Part shown: positions 19,224 to 63,653 of the stretch, in pieces
How the letters are laid out: each line of letters opens with the position of its first letter
How positions within the stretch are numbered: position 1 is the first letter of the stretch
Assembly: GCA_951406725.2 (NCBI GenBank)
Contig: OX597823.1
Location: forward strand, 20,708,001-20,772,000
Direction: 5' to 3'
DNA: 64,000 bases
Origin: Octopus vulgaris
Taxonomy: Eukaryota
Translations under genes and position numbers: made by a program
The notes under the pieces: model-generated
The model's database searches: none
What the model saw: only the letters and a program-made list of their open reading frames with translations
What the model was told of the DNA's origin: nothing

Positions 19224-19404
19224 ATATTAATAGTTATCGCCATACTAATATGGTAGTCTATAAATATAAGACTAAAGCTGTAATGGACGCAGGTTCGTGT
19301 GTCAAATAGCTAGCTAGAGGCGATGGCCTCTTGGAGCTAATCAGCGACAGCTTTACTCTTATATTTATAGACTACCATAGTAGTATGGCGATAACTATTA
19401 ATAT
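19224..19404. repeat. Fold-back inverted repeat, 58-bp arms
   Basis: 19224-19281 vs 19347-19404, 2 mismatches, 65-nt spacer; abuts (TA)n. Confidence 0.95.
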
Positions 19405-19815
19405 CCAGTAACGCTGCCGTAATCTCCTTTAGAGAGACTTAGCAATTTTAATATTTCTATTATATATATATATATATATATATATATATATATATTTATA
19501 TTATTATTATTATTATTATTATTATTATTATTATTATTATTATTATTATTATTATCATTATTATTATCATCATCATCATCATTATTATTATAATTATAAT
19601 AATTTTTGTGTAAGTTTACCGATAATGGTTCTTTTAACATACCTAACTACTTGGTAAGATTATTAATTATAAATTGATCAATTTTACCCTTTATTATTAT
19701 TATTGATTTTATATATATATATATATATATATATATATATATATATATACATACACACACACACACACACACACACACACACACACCCATACACACACAC
19801 AGACTCGTACATATA

Positions 19816-20027
19816 CAGGAACCACTCGACTATCGCGGTTACGTTCCAAAACCCCGCGATAGGTAAAAATCCGTGAAGTAGAAACAGTACTGTATATTTT
19901 ATTTTAATTATTTTCATAATTTGCATATATTTATTTTATTATAAATGGAAACCAATATCAGTCAGGAATCGACGTATGTTTTAAAAAAAACGCGATAGGT
20001 GAACCGCGATATGGCGAAGGATTACTG
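19816..20027. mobile_element. Tigger/pogo-like MITE
   Basis: TA|CAGGAACCACTCGACTATCGCGGTT ... AACCGCGATATGGCGAAGGATTACTG|TG; imperfect TIRs with subterminal CGCGATAGGT repeats. Confidence 0.7.
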
Positions 20028-20199
20028 TGAATGCGTATGTTATAGATATACATTGTATTTAGATATACATGTATTTGCGTGTGTGTGTGCACGTATATAT
20101 ACGTGCATGTATATGTATATGTGCATGCGTTTATGCACATATACACACATACATATATCTATGTGTTTAGGTATGTGTATGGATATGGATATAAATAAT

Positions 20200-20762
20200 C
20201 TTTTCTACTCTAGGTACAAGGCCCGAAATTTTTGGATCGACCCCAGAATGCAACTGGCACTAGATTTATCGACCCCGAAAGGATGAAAGGCAAAGTCGAC
20301 CTCGGCGGAATTTGAATTCAGAACGTAAAGACAGACGAAATACCTCTTTCTTTACTACCCACAAGGGGCTAAACACAGAGGGGGCAAACAAGGACAGACA
20401 AACGGATTAAGTCGTTTACATCGACCCCAGTGCGTAACTGGTACTTAATTTATCGACCCCGAAAGGATGAAAGGCAAAGTCAACCTCTGCGGAATTTGAA
20501 CTCAGAACGTAACGGCAGACGAAATACCTCTTTCTTTACTACTCACAAGGGGCTAAACACAGAGGGGGCAAACAAGGACAGACATAGGTATTAAGTCGTT
20601 TACATCGACCCCAGTGCGTAACTGGTACTTAATTTATCGACCCCGAAAGGATGACAGGCAAAGTCGACCTCGGCGGAATTTGAACTCAGAACGTAACGGC
20701 AGACGAAATACGGCTACGCATTTCGCCCGGCGTGCTAACGTTTCTGCCAGCTCGCCGCCTTG
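20200..20762 (-). mobile_element. SINE family A trimer with 16-bp TSD
   Basis: One head and three cores; TATGGATATAAATAAT at 20184-20199 and 20763-20778. Confidence 0.92.
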
Positions 20763-22039
20763 TATGGATATAAATAATGCCTACCCTCGTACGCTATTCT
20801 TTTGCTGAAAGTCTTCAGAAAATTTAACATTTAGTCTAAATTTTCAAAGGATGCATATTCTGCACCCGTATTGCCAACACCCTGATAAATTAGACAATAC
20901 TTAATTAGTTTAAGAAATATAATCATTTGAAAATTAAGTCGTTTAGAGACGACATCTTCAAAAACAATAGCTAATTAACGTTAAGGTATCCGGTGTATGG
21001 AGCATTGGTTGGCGTCTTCGAAGAATTTAATTTGTAACCAATTATATTTTTTCTGTGGAAGCAATTAAACATATTTTATATATGAACTTGGGATTCCCCT
21101 ACAGAATATGAATTCAGTGCATTTCCGAGAAACACAAAATGAGACGGAGACATATTGTCGAGAAAAGAAAAATATTCATCTTTGACTGATGACTTTTTTT
21201 TCTCCTGACGCAAATTCATTTCTAGTTATTATTTTAACGCTGCCTGCAATAAAAACGTTAACAAGAACTCGGCTAATATTTCATATCCGAAATAACTTTC
21301 TTTAGTTCTAGTAGCCCGATAGTATTCGCAAAACAGTGGGCACTGCGTTCTCCAAGGAATTAAGACAGATTAAGTTAATTCTTACCATGTCTTAACCATC
21401 GTAAGCATTGGTCAATTTGACATATTTCCTAAGTTGTTAACACTTGTGGTTTACGTTCGGCTTCTTTCGCTCAATCACTTGGCTGATATATTGAAGGCAT
21501 CAAATTCCAACATCCTTTGCATACTCAATATAACATTAAGCGGAGAAATTGGATAGGGTAAAATGCAATCAAGAACATTACTGTATAAACTATAGTTACA
21601 CAATATTAGCTTCCTTAATCAGACAACATTTCCGGAACGCTCATAAATTTCTATGCATTTTCAATAAAAATACCATAAAGATGGGTTGCATCACTGTTAA
21701 AGTCAATTTAGTGGCAGTATGATTTACGAACGAAAATATTAGAAACACGTAGAGTTGGAAGTTAGTCGTAATAAGCGTATATTTGTCGATATATAGAAAA
21801 ACCTCACCTAAAATGCAAATAAGTAGAGAAATGCATTATATAAAATGCTGAGAGAGACAACTGAGAAGCCGCCAATATCTGCAGGAGATCTGGTGAAATT
21901 ACTGCAGATAGAGTCTCACCGAGAAACATCATATCATTCACCACCTTTCACCACCCTTCACCAATGTTTGCAAATAAAGAGAGAAAGAGAGAGAGAGGGA
22001 GAGAAAGATTTAAAGTGATGATATGTATCTTTCATCTAG

Positions 22040-60913: not shown

Positions 60914-61351
60914 TATATATATATATATATATATATATATACATGTGTGTGTGTGTGTGTGTGTGTGTGTGTGCCTGTGTGTGTGTGTGTGTGTGTGTGT
61001 GTGTGTGTGTGTTTGTGTAAGGCTATATATATTGGTTATTTCGGCTGTTAATTTCGGGTTGAATCTCCGAGTGAGAGTAATTTCGACTTACAATAGTTAC
61101 ATAAATCTTGTCTTTCCCCCACCTCCCACTCTCGCTTGATGCATACATCTGTGCTTCCTTTTTTATTTTCTCAGGTGTTGGCGGTATTGGAGTTCCTGTT
61201 GTCATCATTTTACCATGATATTCTGTCACTTCCAGGAGGAAAGAGACGTTTATTTTTGCTTTATATTATTCGTGCATTTTTGGTTATTTATATTAAGCTT
61301 CTTGTGGAAATTACTTGTTGTTTCTGAAGCCATACGGTACATAGCTTTACC

Positions 61352-61735
61352 TGGAGGCGCAATGGCCCAGTGGTTAGGGCAGCGGACTCGCGGTCGTAGG
61401 ATCGCGGTTTCGATTCCCAGACCGGGCGTTGTGAGTGTTTATTGAGCGAAAACACCCAAAAGCTCCACGAGGCTCCGGCAGGGGAGGGTGGTGATCCCTG
61501 CTGTACTCTTTCACCACAACTTTCTCTCACTCTTACTTCCTGTTTCTGTTGTACCTGTATTTCAAAGGGCCGGCTTTGTCACTCTCTGTGTCACGCTGAA
61601 TATCCACGAGAACTACGTTAAGGGTACATGTGTCTGTGGAATGCTCAGCCACTTACACGTTAATTTCACGAGCTGGCTGTTCCGTTGATCGGATCAACCG
61701 GAACCCTCGTCTTCGTAACCGACGGAGTGCTTCCA
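61352..61735 (+). mobile_element. SINE family B, full length (tRNA-derived head)
   Basis: GGAGGCGCAATGGCCCAGTGGTTAGGGCAGCGGACTCGCGGTCGTAGGATCGCGGTTTCGATTCCC head with A/B boxes; several copies in the window. Confidence 0.92.
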
Positions 61736-62019
61736 TCCAGTTTTACTTGTTTTATAAGGGATCTGGCCCCGTATTCATGGTAAATAATACATATTTTTCA
61801 GGTGTAATTCTCTTCAAATCTTGCTGGTTCTTTTAAGGTCTAGCTCGTATATTTTAACAGTAATTTCTTACTGAAGAAGCAAATGCAAATATCTTTTTCT
61901 AAATCTATTTAGCTGCGTTTTAAGTGCTAATATATTACCGGAGGTGCAATGGCCTAGTGGCTAGGTCAGCGGACCCACGGTCGGAGGATCGCAATTTCAA
62001 TTCGCAGACCGGGGTAAAA

Positions 62020-62470
62020 AGCTTGTTTCCAAACCACATAGCTTCTGGTGCAGTCCTGCTGCGTAGCACCTTGGGCAAGTGTCTTCTACTATAGCCTCGG
62101 GTCGACCAAAGGCTTGTGAGTGGATTTGGTAGACGGAAATTGAAAGAAGCCTGTCGCGTATAATTATTTATCTCTCTACCTACCTACATATATATATATA
62201 TACATATATATATATATATATATATATATATATATATATGTGTGTGTGTGTGTGTGTGTGTGTGTGTTTACGTTTGTGTTTGTCCTCCCACACCATCACT
62301 TTGACAACCGATAAGGGTGTGTTTGGGTCCCCGTAAATTAACGGTTAGCAGAAGACACCGATAGAAGAAACTCCAGGTTTACAAACAATGAGTCCATGAG
62401 TCGATTTCGTCGACTAAAAGGCGATGCTCTAGCATGGCCACAGTTAACTGACTGAAACAAGCAAAAGAAT
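62020..62470 (+). mobile_element. SINE family C
   Basis: Homology to other copies. Confidence 0.85.
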
Positions 62471-63341
62471 ATATGTATCCTTAATTAATTGCTTTGTCTT
62501 CGAAGTTACCTTACGAATTGTTCCAAATCCGAATAAATCTCTTTACTGTTTCAATAGTATCCTAGTTTCTCATTAATACTGAAGAACGATTTCAGATCGT
62601 TGACAAACCAAATAAACCAAGTCCAGTCTTGTTTGACATACCAGGTATTTCTTTCAGCTCCATGCAAGAAAAATACTGGACATAGGGTGCATCCTATTAC
62701 ATTTTCTATCTGAAGAATTAGGACAAGGTTAGTTTCCATATTTCCCTCTTTTCTCGGCTATTTACTTATTCCTTATGTCTGTTTGTTATTGGTGCAATTT
62801 AAATTATGCATGATATTTAGAGGACCTACATGCTTTCTGGGCGCCAGTGCACGTATGTTTTTATTACTCTTTTATCCTGACAGAGTCTTCATTTATGGCG
62901 CCAGAATTAGTATTTGCTAATGGGCAGAGGGAGTGGAAAGCAGTGACCTGAAGCTGAGCTAAAGATGAAGAGAAGAGTAAAAAGAAGTTTTGTTTCAAAA
63001 TATTGGGAATTTCATCGGGTCTATCTGAGTATGTGATTTGTGTGTGTGTGTGCGTGTATGTGTGTGTGTGTCTATAAACAGAGAAAAAGTAAATAGATAA
63101 ATAGATTTGAATTATATATATATATATATATATATATCACGTGATCACGTGACCGACTAGTCCATCAGATGTAGTTACAGATCGCTGGTCACAATGCGTT
63201 CGCATTGTTTTAGCCTTCGAATGACGCCACCCCGCTGGCTAAGCAAGCAGGCCACTATATATATATATATATATATATATATATACGTTTATATATTCAT
63301 TTTGCAAGATTTTTGATGTGAAATCGTGTGTTGTAACAAAT

Positions 63342-63653
63342 ATTGTTGTGTTTAGGGATGGTCATGTTGCCAGTTTAGCCAATAAAAACACACGAAGGAA
63401 ATTGGTGTTAATTTCCTTCAGCTTTATTTTTTACATTAATCATATTTCGGCCAGAGTTCTTTCGTCACACTTCTGTGACCTCACCAGGGGTCCTTTGCTT
63501 TCTTCTTTCTTATTTGTGTGTCTCTCCTTGCTAACGATCAAACAAAAAAATAAATAAATAAAAAATAAAGCTGAAGTAAAGTAACACCAAATATATCGTG
63601 CATGTGTTTTTATTGGCTAAACTGGCAACATGACCCTCCCTAAATACAACAAT
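63342..63653. repeat. Inverted repeat, ~92-bp arms, with a hammerhead-like spacer
   Basis: 63342-63433 vs 63559-63653; lies between (TA)n tracts. Confidence 0.9.
63449..63493 (-). ncRNA. Degenerate type I hammerhead-like motif
   Basis: GGACCC CUGGUGA G GUCAC-agaagu-GUGAC GAAA GAAC UC UGGCC; perfect 5-bp stem II, A6->G, stem I with mismatches. Confidence 0.5.

What the first reader, a model, noticed from the sequence alone, without database searches (positions are those of the whole stretch)
19224..63653. Recurring fold-back hairpins of unrelated sequence, mostly anchored on (TA)n
Seen: six inverted repeats with no shared sequence: 19224-19404 (58 bp), 27427-27660 (~50), 53822-53958 (54, perfect), 56279-56582 (~143), 60645-60913 (~130) and 63342-63653 (~92). 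Five abut (TA)n, none has TIR/TSD hallmarks of MITEs, and two enclose hammerhead-like motifs. Established: Penelope-like elements often leave inverted partial terminal repeats. Inference: a diverse set of TA-targeting, hairpin-primed, ribozyme-bearing retroelements. Each would form long dsRNA in the transporter pre-mRNA and be a candidate ADAR substrate in a lineage known for heavy A-to-I editing.
Basis: partly seen in the sequence, partly recalled or inferred. Interest (0 to 1): 0.7.

Follow-up and report, generated by a model that had tools for sequence, protein, structure and literature searches.

The report
Penelope retrotransposon stubs forming intronic hairpins
The six hairpins are real and are short leftovers of six different Penelope-type jumping-gene families inside the introns of a transporter gene, a known layout that likely arises when the element's RNA is copied onto both cut DNA strands; no evidence of RNA editing or of a function was found.

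Summary
All six inverted repeats are real (6 found; 0-1 in 20 shuffles). Each belongs to a different dispersed repeat family. Three families run into Penelope-like (PLE) ORFs: C and B Hydra-type, F Neptune/Nematis-like. A and D are ORF-less tandem monomers (retrozyme-like); E is unlinked. Every family has a type I hammerhead-like core. Five insertions extend past the reported arms by a 30-90 nt one-sided 'tail'. Across 138 loci, element 3' ends abut (TA)n in 142 of 209 cases (background about 2%); non-TA targets show mostly 11-15 bp TSDs. Of 64 hairpins, 53 pair one short with one long 3' end, none pairs like with like, and the loop is on the tail-less arm in 16 of 23 unbiased cases. Inverted pLTR, tail, TSD and (TA)n targeting are published PLE features, and this scan has noted the same on other DNA. 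All six lie in introns of an SLC6 gene; editing is untested in RNA, with no A-to-G imprint in 367 genomic arms.

The parts
19224..19459 (+). Insertion A: inverted arm 19224-19281 (short end) + sense copy 19279-19459 with 55-nt tail (19405-19459); stub of a ~358-bp tandem, ORF-less monomer whose U3-A8 hammerhead-like motif lies upstream of the part kept here; (TA)n on both sides
27422..28277 (+). Insertion B: 3' UTR/pLTR of a Hydra-type PLE; internal inverted duplication 27422-27474 (of 27613-27665) at the 5' truncation; interrupted by a SINE at about 27718-27955; HHR-like CCGATGA core at 28174; 3' end at (TA)25
53822..54021 (+). Insertion C: inverted pLTR arm 53822-53903 (short end; HHR-like motif on the minus strand, core CCGACGA at 53888) + sense arm 53905-54021 with tail 53959-54021; pLTR of a Hydra-type PLE; (TA)n on both sides
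56279..56669 (+). Insertion D: inverted arm 56279-56421 (short end) + sense copy 56418-56669 starting 3 nt behind the predicted hammerhead cut, tail 56583-56669; stub of a ~498-bp tandem ORF-less monomer; (TA)27 on the left, SINE fragment on the right
60615..60913 (-). Insertion E: sense copy 60773->60615 with ~30-nt tail (60615-60644) + inverted arm 60778-60913; degenerate hammerhead-like motif (CTGGAGA..GCAA..TA) at the apex; no ORF linked; (TA)n on both sides
63287..63653 (-). Insertion F: sense copy about 63550->63287 with 55-nt tail (63287-63341), HHR-like motif (core CTGGTGA at about 63487) in the loop + inverted arm 63556-63653; pLTR of a Neptune/Nematis-like PLE; TA runs on both sides
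891..44266 (-). Host gene context: five exon-bearing frames of an SLC6 (sodium:neurotransmitter symporter) gene at 891-1121, 15333-15608, 22449-22673, 31505-31702, 44087-44266; more N-terminal exons lie 22-56 kb beyond the window's right end, so all six insertions are inside the gene span
   Evidence: Pfam PF00209; translations

Best explanation
The six hairpins are 5'-truncated insertions of six unrelated Penelope-like retroelement families or their ORF-less partners, and five of them likely arose when a PLE protein cut both strands of an AT-rich or (TA)n target and primed one cDNA from each strand at two different start sites in the element's RNA. Shown: family membership; two fixed 3' ends per family; variable 5' junctions with 1-7 nt overlaps or filler; one short plus one long end per hairpin; (TA)n or TSD flanks; PLE ORFs upstream in B, C, F. 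Inferred: the two cDNAs stop early, usually within a few hundred bases of the hammerhead, and are joined head to head by end-joining; the distance between the two start sites is the one-sided tail; the stagger of the cut is the 11-15 bp TSD, hidden when the target is (TA)n. A, D and probably E would be copied in trans by PLE proteins. B's inversion is internal and may have come from internal priming or fold-back. The copies are passive intronic passengers.
For: Families: 903-3069 first-look candidates each. ORF links: L210 is one 3.0-kb insertion between (TA)n runs with an inverted pLTR bearing the tail, an RT-type ORF with RWK, DKT and YRDDG, a 3' UTR and a pLTR ending at the short site; L223 has the CxxC..E..N..CxH endonuclease end before the same UTR; Hydra motifs as in PMC8557442 section 11. 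B: GIY-YIG-like frame upstream on the same strand in 6 of 20 extended loci. F: CX4CxxC and GETT-bearing endonuclease end in L217, C-terminal piece also in L218, L219 (3 of 6 extended loci). Ends: A +176/+231, C +42/+108, D +162/+251-262, E +94/+124, F +120/+175 from the predicted cut. 53 of 64 hairpins long+short, 0 long+long, 0 short+short, 11 with an unclassified end; loop on the short arm 16, long arm 5, tie 2 in the sets picked without regard to tail or apex (D, A, F). (TA)n at 142 of 209 3' ends, 17 of 67 5' ends, background 2.1-2.3%. Shared >=8-mer in flanks of 20 of 37 non-TA insertions, shuffled mean 0.8, max 4. In vitro the PAc protein cuts and extends both strands and starts at two internal RNA sites that bound the tail (PMC11167929).
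Against: No ORF was linked to A, D or E (E: 0 of 6 extended loci; D: none contiguous in 14 extended loci; A: only +-1.5 kb loci examined). Pfam and PDB gave no hit for the L210 ORF; its RT identity rests on motifs and on tblastn to a GIY-YIG-linked frame (E 7e-29). Rfam found no hammerhead in three family copies; the ribozyme call rests on my descriptor and core tallies. Samples are the best-scoring 30 of hundreds of candidates, so young, intact copies are favoured. In vitro PAc showed no difference in start site between strands, which does not itself predict strict long+short pairing. Later central deletions in palindromes could shift loops to either arm. B does not fit the two-start-site pattern.
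Confidence: 0.75

Rival explanations
1. Same PLE origin, but a hairpin DNA intermediate: one cDNA made on a multimeric RNA folds back and copies itself, the endonuclease then cuts the open end at two staggered sites (short on one strand, long on the other) and the hairpin is inserted; later central deletions scramble the apex.
For: Explains strict long+short pairing directly. Self-priming was proposed for PLE palindromes in PMC3846280 and EN-mediated resolution for the tail in PMC8557442. Some D junctions read as a fold-back exactly at the predicted cut (L007, L011). B's internal inversion fits fold-back. Arms of one copy share 147 private variants against 565 one-arm differences.
Against: A strand-specific cut predicts the loop always on the same arm; it is on either (D 3:3, A 5:0, F 8:2). 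Single-arm copies end at either site and carry TSDs too. In vitro start sites match the tail ends. No pile-up of 5' ends at the cut (7 of 121 within 5 nt).
Confidence: 0.15
2. One reading: a target-primed cDNA folds back on itself and primes its own second strand.
For: Short overlaps at many junctions; window copies A, C, D, E, F all have the shorter arm without tail; B.
Against: A second strand cannot hold sequence that the first strand lacks, yet the tail is on the non-loop arm in 16 of 23 unbiased copies and in the 3-kb L210; second arms end at one fixed site, not at random.
Confidence: 0.05
3. MITEs or fold-back DNA transposons that target TA.
For: Short, high-copy, inverted arms, fixed outer ends at TA.
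Against: Arms are asymmetric, apex differs per copy, about half of the copies have one arm only (64 hairpins in 138 loci), tandem monomers, hammerhead cores, 11-15 bp TSDs, continuity with PLE ORFs.
Confidence: 0.02
4. Assembly artefacts (fold-back chimeric reads).
For: C is a perfect 54-bp arm pair; no public contig bridged a window-specific junction.
Against: Five of six arm pairs have diverged 3-12%; the same ends recur at dozens of loci on many contigs; artefacts would not respect family-specific start sites or TSDs.
Confidence: 0.01

Closest known systems
EN+ Penelope-like element insertions with inverted 5'-truncated pLTR, one-sided tail and TSD (PMC8557442 passages and Fig. 2 legend; PMC3846280 passages)
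   Same: Head-to-head inverted copy at the 5' end, tail on only one end, TSD, strong 5' truncation, partial tandems, (TA)n preference.
   Different: Here most insertions are reduced to the two arms alone; tails are 30-100 nt rather than 30-40; TSDs 11-15 bp against 8-10 bp in Adineta; counts of long/short pairing are given.
Hydra clade PLEs (PMC8557442 section 11; Hydra-1_Obim listed in its File S1)
   Same: C and B families: RWK, DKT, CxCX5C linker, CxxC/CxH around E and N, C-terminal GIY-YIG, (TA)n targets, hammerhead.
   Different: Long 3' UTRs (about 0.9-1.2 kb); core mostly CCGA(T/C)GA; the paper's octopus family had no pLTR found. Sequence identity to Hydra-1_Obim was not tested.
Poseidon_Ac (PAc) internal initiation (PMC11167929, parts 1-2 of 4 read)
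   Same: Two fixed internal start sites bounding the tail, AT-rich targets, both strands cut and extended, hammerhead cut not required.
   Different: That work did not describe inverted insertions or pairing of start sites within one insertion in the parts I read.
Animal non-LTR retrozymes (PMC7229834 passages; bioRxiv 10.64898/2026.07.22.740005 parts 1-2 of 5 read)
   Same: A (358 bp) and D (498 bp): ORF-less tandem monomers with one type I hammerhead-like motif each.
   Different: Circular RNA and cleavage not shown here; copies carry the PLE insertion footprint (two start sites, inverted arm, TSD), which those papers infer only indirectly in the parts I read.
L1 twin priming (recalled)
   Same: Both target strands prime, products joined by microhomology.
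   Different: L1 twin priming inverts part of one RNA without duplicating it; here both arms copy the same stretch from two fixed sites.

Membership tests
EN+ Penelope-like elements | Linked ORF with PLE RT and GIY-YIG endonuclease | tested here: met
   C: RT-type ORF (L210) and EN end (L223); B: EN frame (L190, L208; Pfam GIY-YIG only E 0.015); F: EN end (L217). All broken or partial.
EN+ Penelope-like elements | Linked ORF for families A, D, E | tested here: not met
   None found in the loci examined; they are filed as non-autonomous partners, not as autonomous PLEs.
EN+ Penelope-like elements | Inverted 5'-truncated pLTR with tail on one end | tested here: met
   53 of 64 hairpins long+short; window A, C, D, E, F. 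Not met by the window copy of B.
EN+ Penelope-like elements | TSD or microsatellite/AT-rich target | tested here: met
   142 of 209 3' ends at (TA)n; 20 of 37 non-TA insertions with a shared flank word.
EN+ Penelope-like elements | Type I hammerhead motif in the pLTR | tested here: met
   Descriptor and core tallies: D CTGANGA 11 of 12 (one with GAAT), F CTGATGA 22 of 29, A TTGATAA 13 of 13 (U3-A8, known from PMC4209133), C CCGA(T/C)GA 35 of 38, E GCAA in place of GAAA 11 of 11. Rfam did not detect them.
EN+ Penelope-like elements | RT phylogeny places the ORF among PLEs | not tested
   No reference PLE proteins were on hand; no tree built.
Hydra clade (C, B) | RWK and DKT motifs in RT; CxCX5C linker; CxxC and CxH around E and N; (TA)n insertion | tested here: met
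   L210 ORF, L223, L208, L190 against PMC8557442 section 11; RT motifs seen for C only.
Neptune/Nematis clades (F) | CX2-5CxxC linker upstream of a C-terminal GIY-YIG | tested here: inconclusive
   CX4CxxC present in one broken copy, L217; clade cannot be split without RT.
Animal non-LTR retrozymes (A, D) | ORF-less tandem repeats with a type I hammerhead per unit | tested here: met
   Tandem continuation in L064, L065, L274, L279, L286 (A) and L101, L106, L234, L250, L252 (D). Mostly 1.1-1.5-mers; two complete hammerheads in one array not shown.
Animal non-LTR retrozymes (A, D) | Self-cleavage and circular RNA | not testable with these tools
   No bench data; no RNA holder listed.
MITE / DNA transposon | Symmetric fixed TIRs, fixed interior, short fixed TSD | tested here: not met
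ADAR substrate | Long duplex in a transcribed pre-mRNA | tested here: inconclusive
   Predicted MFE -74 to -228 kcal/mol, z -5.6 to -26.5 on the gene's strand; intronic position; transcription not shown.
ADAR substrate | A-to-G clusters in RNA | not testable with these tools
   Only short multi-copy contigs available; genomic arms show no A>G excess.

The most novel reading that the evidence does not exclude
Five unrelated families, including two ORF-less retrozyme-like monomers, obey one rule: each two-armed insertion uses one short and one long RNA start site, in either order. This would be a genomic record that one PLE complex (a dimer) primes both cut strands at different start sites, and direct evidence that PLE proteins mobilise animal retrozymes. 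I did not find the pairing rule or a twin-priming model for PLEs in print (searches); the one-sided tail itself is in print, and other notes of this scan reach the same reading.
Probability: 0.6. Interest if true: 0.45.

Novelty: new member of a known kind. Interest (0 to 1): 0.24.

Why it matters
As a locus it is ordinary: transposon stubs in introns. The modest value lies in the insertion statistics. How PLEs make tandem and inverted structures is called undefined in PMC8557442, and PMC11167929 leaves the later steps open; the strict long+short pairing and loop on either arm give a sharp prediction for the existing in vitro system. The same footprint on ORF-less monomers supports the proposal that PLEs mobilise animal retrozymes. 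A role in editing of the transporter transcript is not shown, and inverted SINE pairs in the same introns are a larger source of duplex RNA.

Tried and rejected
Rfam scan of the window: only microsatellite/miRNA noise among the 150 rows shown, no hammerhead; of three family copies: none. My early idea that the fold-back point is fixed at the hammerhead cut failed on samples picked by a 3' query: 3 of 43 (D), 2 of 33 (A), 2 of 45 (F) 5' ends within 5 nt; the first sample was biased by its query. ADAR imprint in DNA: A>G 196, T>C 216, C>T 271, G>A 252 in 367 arms, at most 5 A>G in an arm, window arms at most 3. Sequencing runs: no RNA holder listed; contigs of four runs each laid on D and on C were short family pieces that bridged no window-specific junction, uninformative. 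PDB search of the L210 ORF empty; Atlas unavailable. GIY-YIG and RT frames near D copies (L096, L102) lie 2.3-3 kb away without shared sequence between and were not counted as links. MITE and artefact readings rejected as above. The seventh inverted pair at 26495-27386 is not a family (2 matches, both local). Supplements: only File S1 rows of PMC8557442 were searched; supplements of the other papers and of the preprint were not seen and could hold related junction data.
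Full report
Observation. The six inverted repeats are present as described and are the only six local, non-microsatellite inverted repeats of that size in the window; 20 shuffles gave 0 in 19 and 1 in one. Arm identity runs from 88% (B, F) to 100% (C). I label them A (19224), B (27422), C (53822), D (56279), E (60645), F (63342). No tool names the organism; the genome is 2.8 Gb in 227 contigs and earlier notes of this scan call it an octopus, which I take as a lead only.

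Each hairpin is a member of a dispersed family. Searches of the own genome gave 903-3069 first-look candidates per query, of which the best 40 are scored. The six families share no sequence in the window beyond their own sites. Alignments showed that every element runs past one arm by a family-specific tail, that the apex differs from copy to copy and that many copies have one arm only.

Link to Penelope-like ORFs. Locus L210 is one 3.0-kb insertion between two (TA)n runs: an inverted copy of C with its tail, a 5'-truncated 441-aa frame with RWK, DKT and YRDDG, an internal deletion, a long 3' UTR and a sense copy of C ending at the short site. L223 has the same UTR preceded by an endonuclease end with CxxC, E, N and CxH. 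These are the Hydra-clade marks in PMC8557442 (section 11 read), whose File S1 lists an octopus Hydra family inserting into (TA)n. B is the 3' UTR of another Hydra-type element: a GIY-YIG-like frame lies upstream on the same strand in 6 of 20 extended loci. F continues into a broken endonuclease with a CX4CxxC linker in L217 and its C-terminal piece in L218 and L219, 3 of 6 extended loci. A and D instead continue into their own sequence as tandem monomers of about 358 and 498 bp; no ORF was linked to A, D or E. Against: Pfam and PDB did not recognise the L210 frame, and no RT tree was built.

Hammerheads. A descriptor found type I motifs at one fixed place in each family: canonical in D and F, U3-A8 in A (a variant reported for PLEs in PMC4209133, passages read), CCGA(T/C)GA in C and B, GCAA for GAAA in E. 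Rfam did not detect them. In the window, A and D start behind the core, and C, E, F and B carry changed cores, three of them inside a long stem-loop, so cleavage of the host transcript is unlikely (inference).

Insertion anatomy. I mapped 150 loci (30 per family) on natural reference copies and dropped 12 (5 window copies, 4 second views of one insertion, 3 repeats of one satellite context), leaving 138. The D, A and F sets came from queries that lie 5' of both end sites and 3' of the apex, so they do not favour an arm type; the E and C sets favour the tail on the central arm. Each family has two 3' ends: A +176/+231, C +42/+108, D +162/+251-262, E +94/+124, F +120/+175 from the predicted cut. 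(TA)n follows 142 of 209 3' ends and 17 of 67 5' ends (Fisher p 1e-9), against 2.1-2.3% of random positions. In 37 insertions without (TA)n flanks, 20 share a word of 8 or more letters on both sides, mostly 11-15 bp (shuffled mean 0.8, max 4; one insertion is counted twice and two words are low-complexity). Of 64 hairpins, 53 have one short and one long end, none has two of a kind, 11 have an eroded or unclassified end. In D, A and F two-arm copies the 5'-longer (loop) arm is the short-ended one in 16, the long-ended one in 5, tied in 2; in E and C 7, 11 and 9. Junctions show 1-7 nt overlaps or filler. 5' ends do not pile up at the predicted cut (7 of 121 within 5 nt).

Mechanism. The data fit a staggered double cut, two target-primed cDNAs from two internal start sites, early stops and joining of the 5' ends. 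This matches the in vitro behaviour of PAc, which cuts and extends both strands and starts at two sites bounding the tail (PMC11167929, parts 1-2 of 4 read). These steps are inferred. The serious rival is a free hairpin intermediate resolved by a staggered cut, with later apex deletions; self-priming was proposed in PMC3846280 (passages and abstract read). B's inversion copies an internal stretch 600 bp from the element's 3' end and is not TA-anchored, so fold-back or internal priming remains open there.

Host gene and editing. Pfam PF00209 exons on the minus strand at about 1.0, 15.4, 22.6, 31.6 and 44.2 kb, with more N-terminal exons 22-56 kb right of the window in the expected order, put all six in introns of an SLC6 gene (300 and 142 frames scanned). 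All fold strongly on that strand. Editing of repeats in coleoid transcripts is published (PMC9068888, passages read), so these could be edited like any inverted repeat, but no RNA data bear on it, genomic arms show no A-to-G imprint and longer inverted SINE pairs abound in the same introns.

Comparison and verdict. Inverted 5'-truncated copy, one-sided tail, TSD and (TA)n bias are described for PLEs (PMC8557442, passages, section 11 and File S1 rows; PMC3846280); hammerheads on opposite strands 100-700 bp apart are in PMC4209133; retrozymes as PLE partners are proposed in PMC7229834 (passages) and a 2026 preprint (parts 1-2 of 5). My reading was fixed before I opened the scan's notes, which report the same thing in this and other genomes (a sequence look-up of A found nothing). 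New members of a known kind; the pairing counts are a useful but modest addition. Interest 0.24.

Noticed in passing
window 26495-26615 and 27290-27386: A seventh inverted pair (82% alike) about 700 bp apart, separated by a long (TA)n run and nested repeats; only these two local matches in the genome search, so a local inverted duplication of unknown origin just left of B.
   Followed up: partly
window 42484-43421 (+): Tc1/mariner transposase remnant (HTH_SB, HTH_Tnp_Tc3_2, DDE_3).
   Followed up: no
window 56049 (+): Another hammerhead-like string (CCGAAGA core, GAAA, palindromic GTAC, TA) 230 bp left of D; may be chance or a further PLE stub.
   Followed up: no
window 17827-52741: Many long-range inverted pairs of SINE-like repeats (150-240 nt, 74-96%), one pair only 872 nt apart (31107-31275 / 32148-32316); a larger source of intronic duplex RNA than the six hairpins.
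   Followed up: no
window 10627-10671 (+): 45-bp piece of family F beside a (TA)n run: a minimal single-arm stub.
   Followed up: no
L261, L262, L283, L287: Family A copies in one identical flanking context on three contigs, so carried inside a larger repeat or satellite.
   Followed up: no
families B and C (L208, L226, L141-L169): Two different Hydra-type families both carry CCGA(T/C)GA instead of CTGANGA in the hammerhead core as the majority form (35 of 38 in C); whether it cleaves is unknown.
   Followed up: partly
L102:7221-9501 (-), L190, L223: Hydra-type frames with long asparagine-rich stretches between RT and endonuclease, like the N-rich inserts described for Adineta Penelope (PMC3846280).
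   Followed up: no
window 47695-48243 (+) and 7521-8102 (+): Frames that read like C-terminal parts of non-LTR retrotransposon ORFs (by eye; no Pfam hit for the first, the second not scanned).
   Followed up: no
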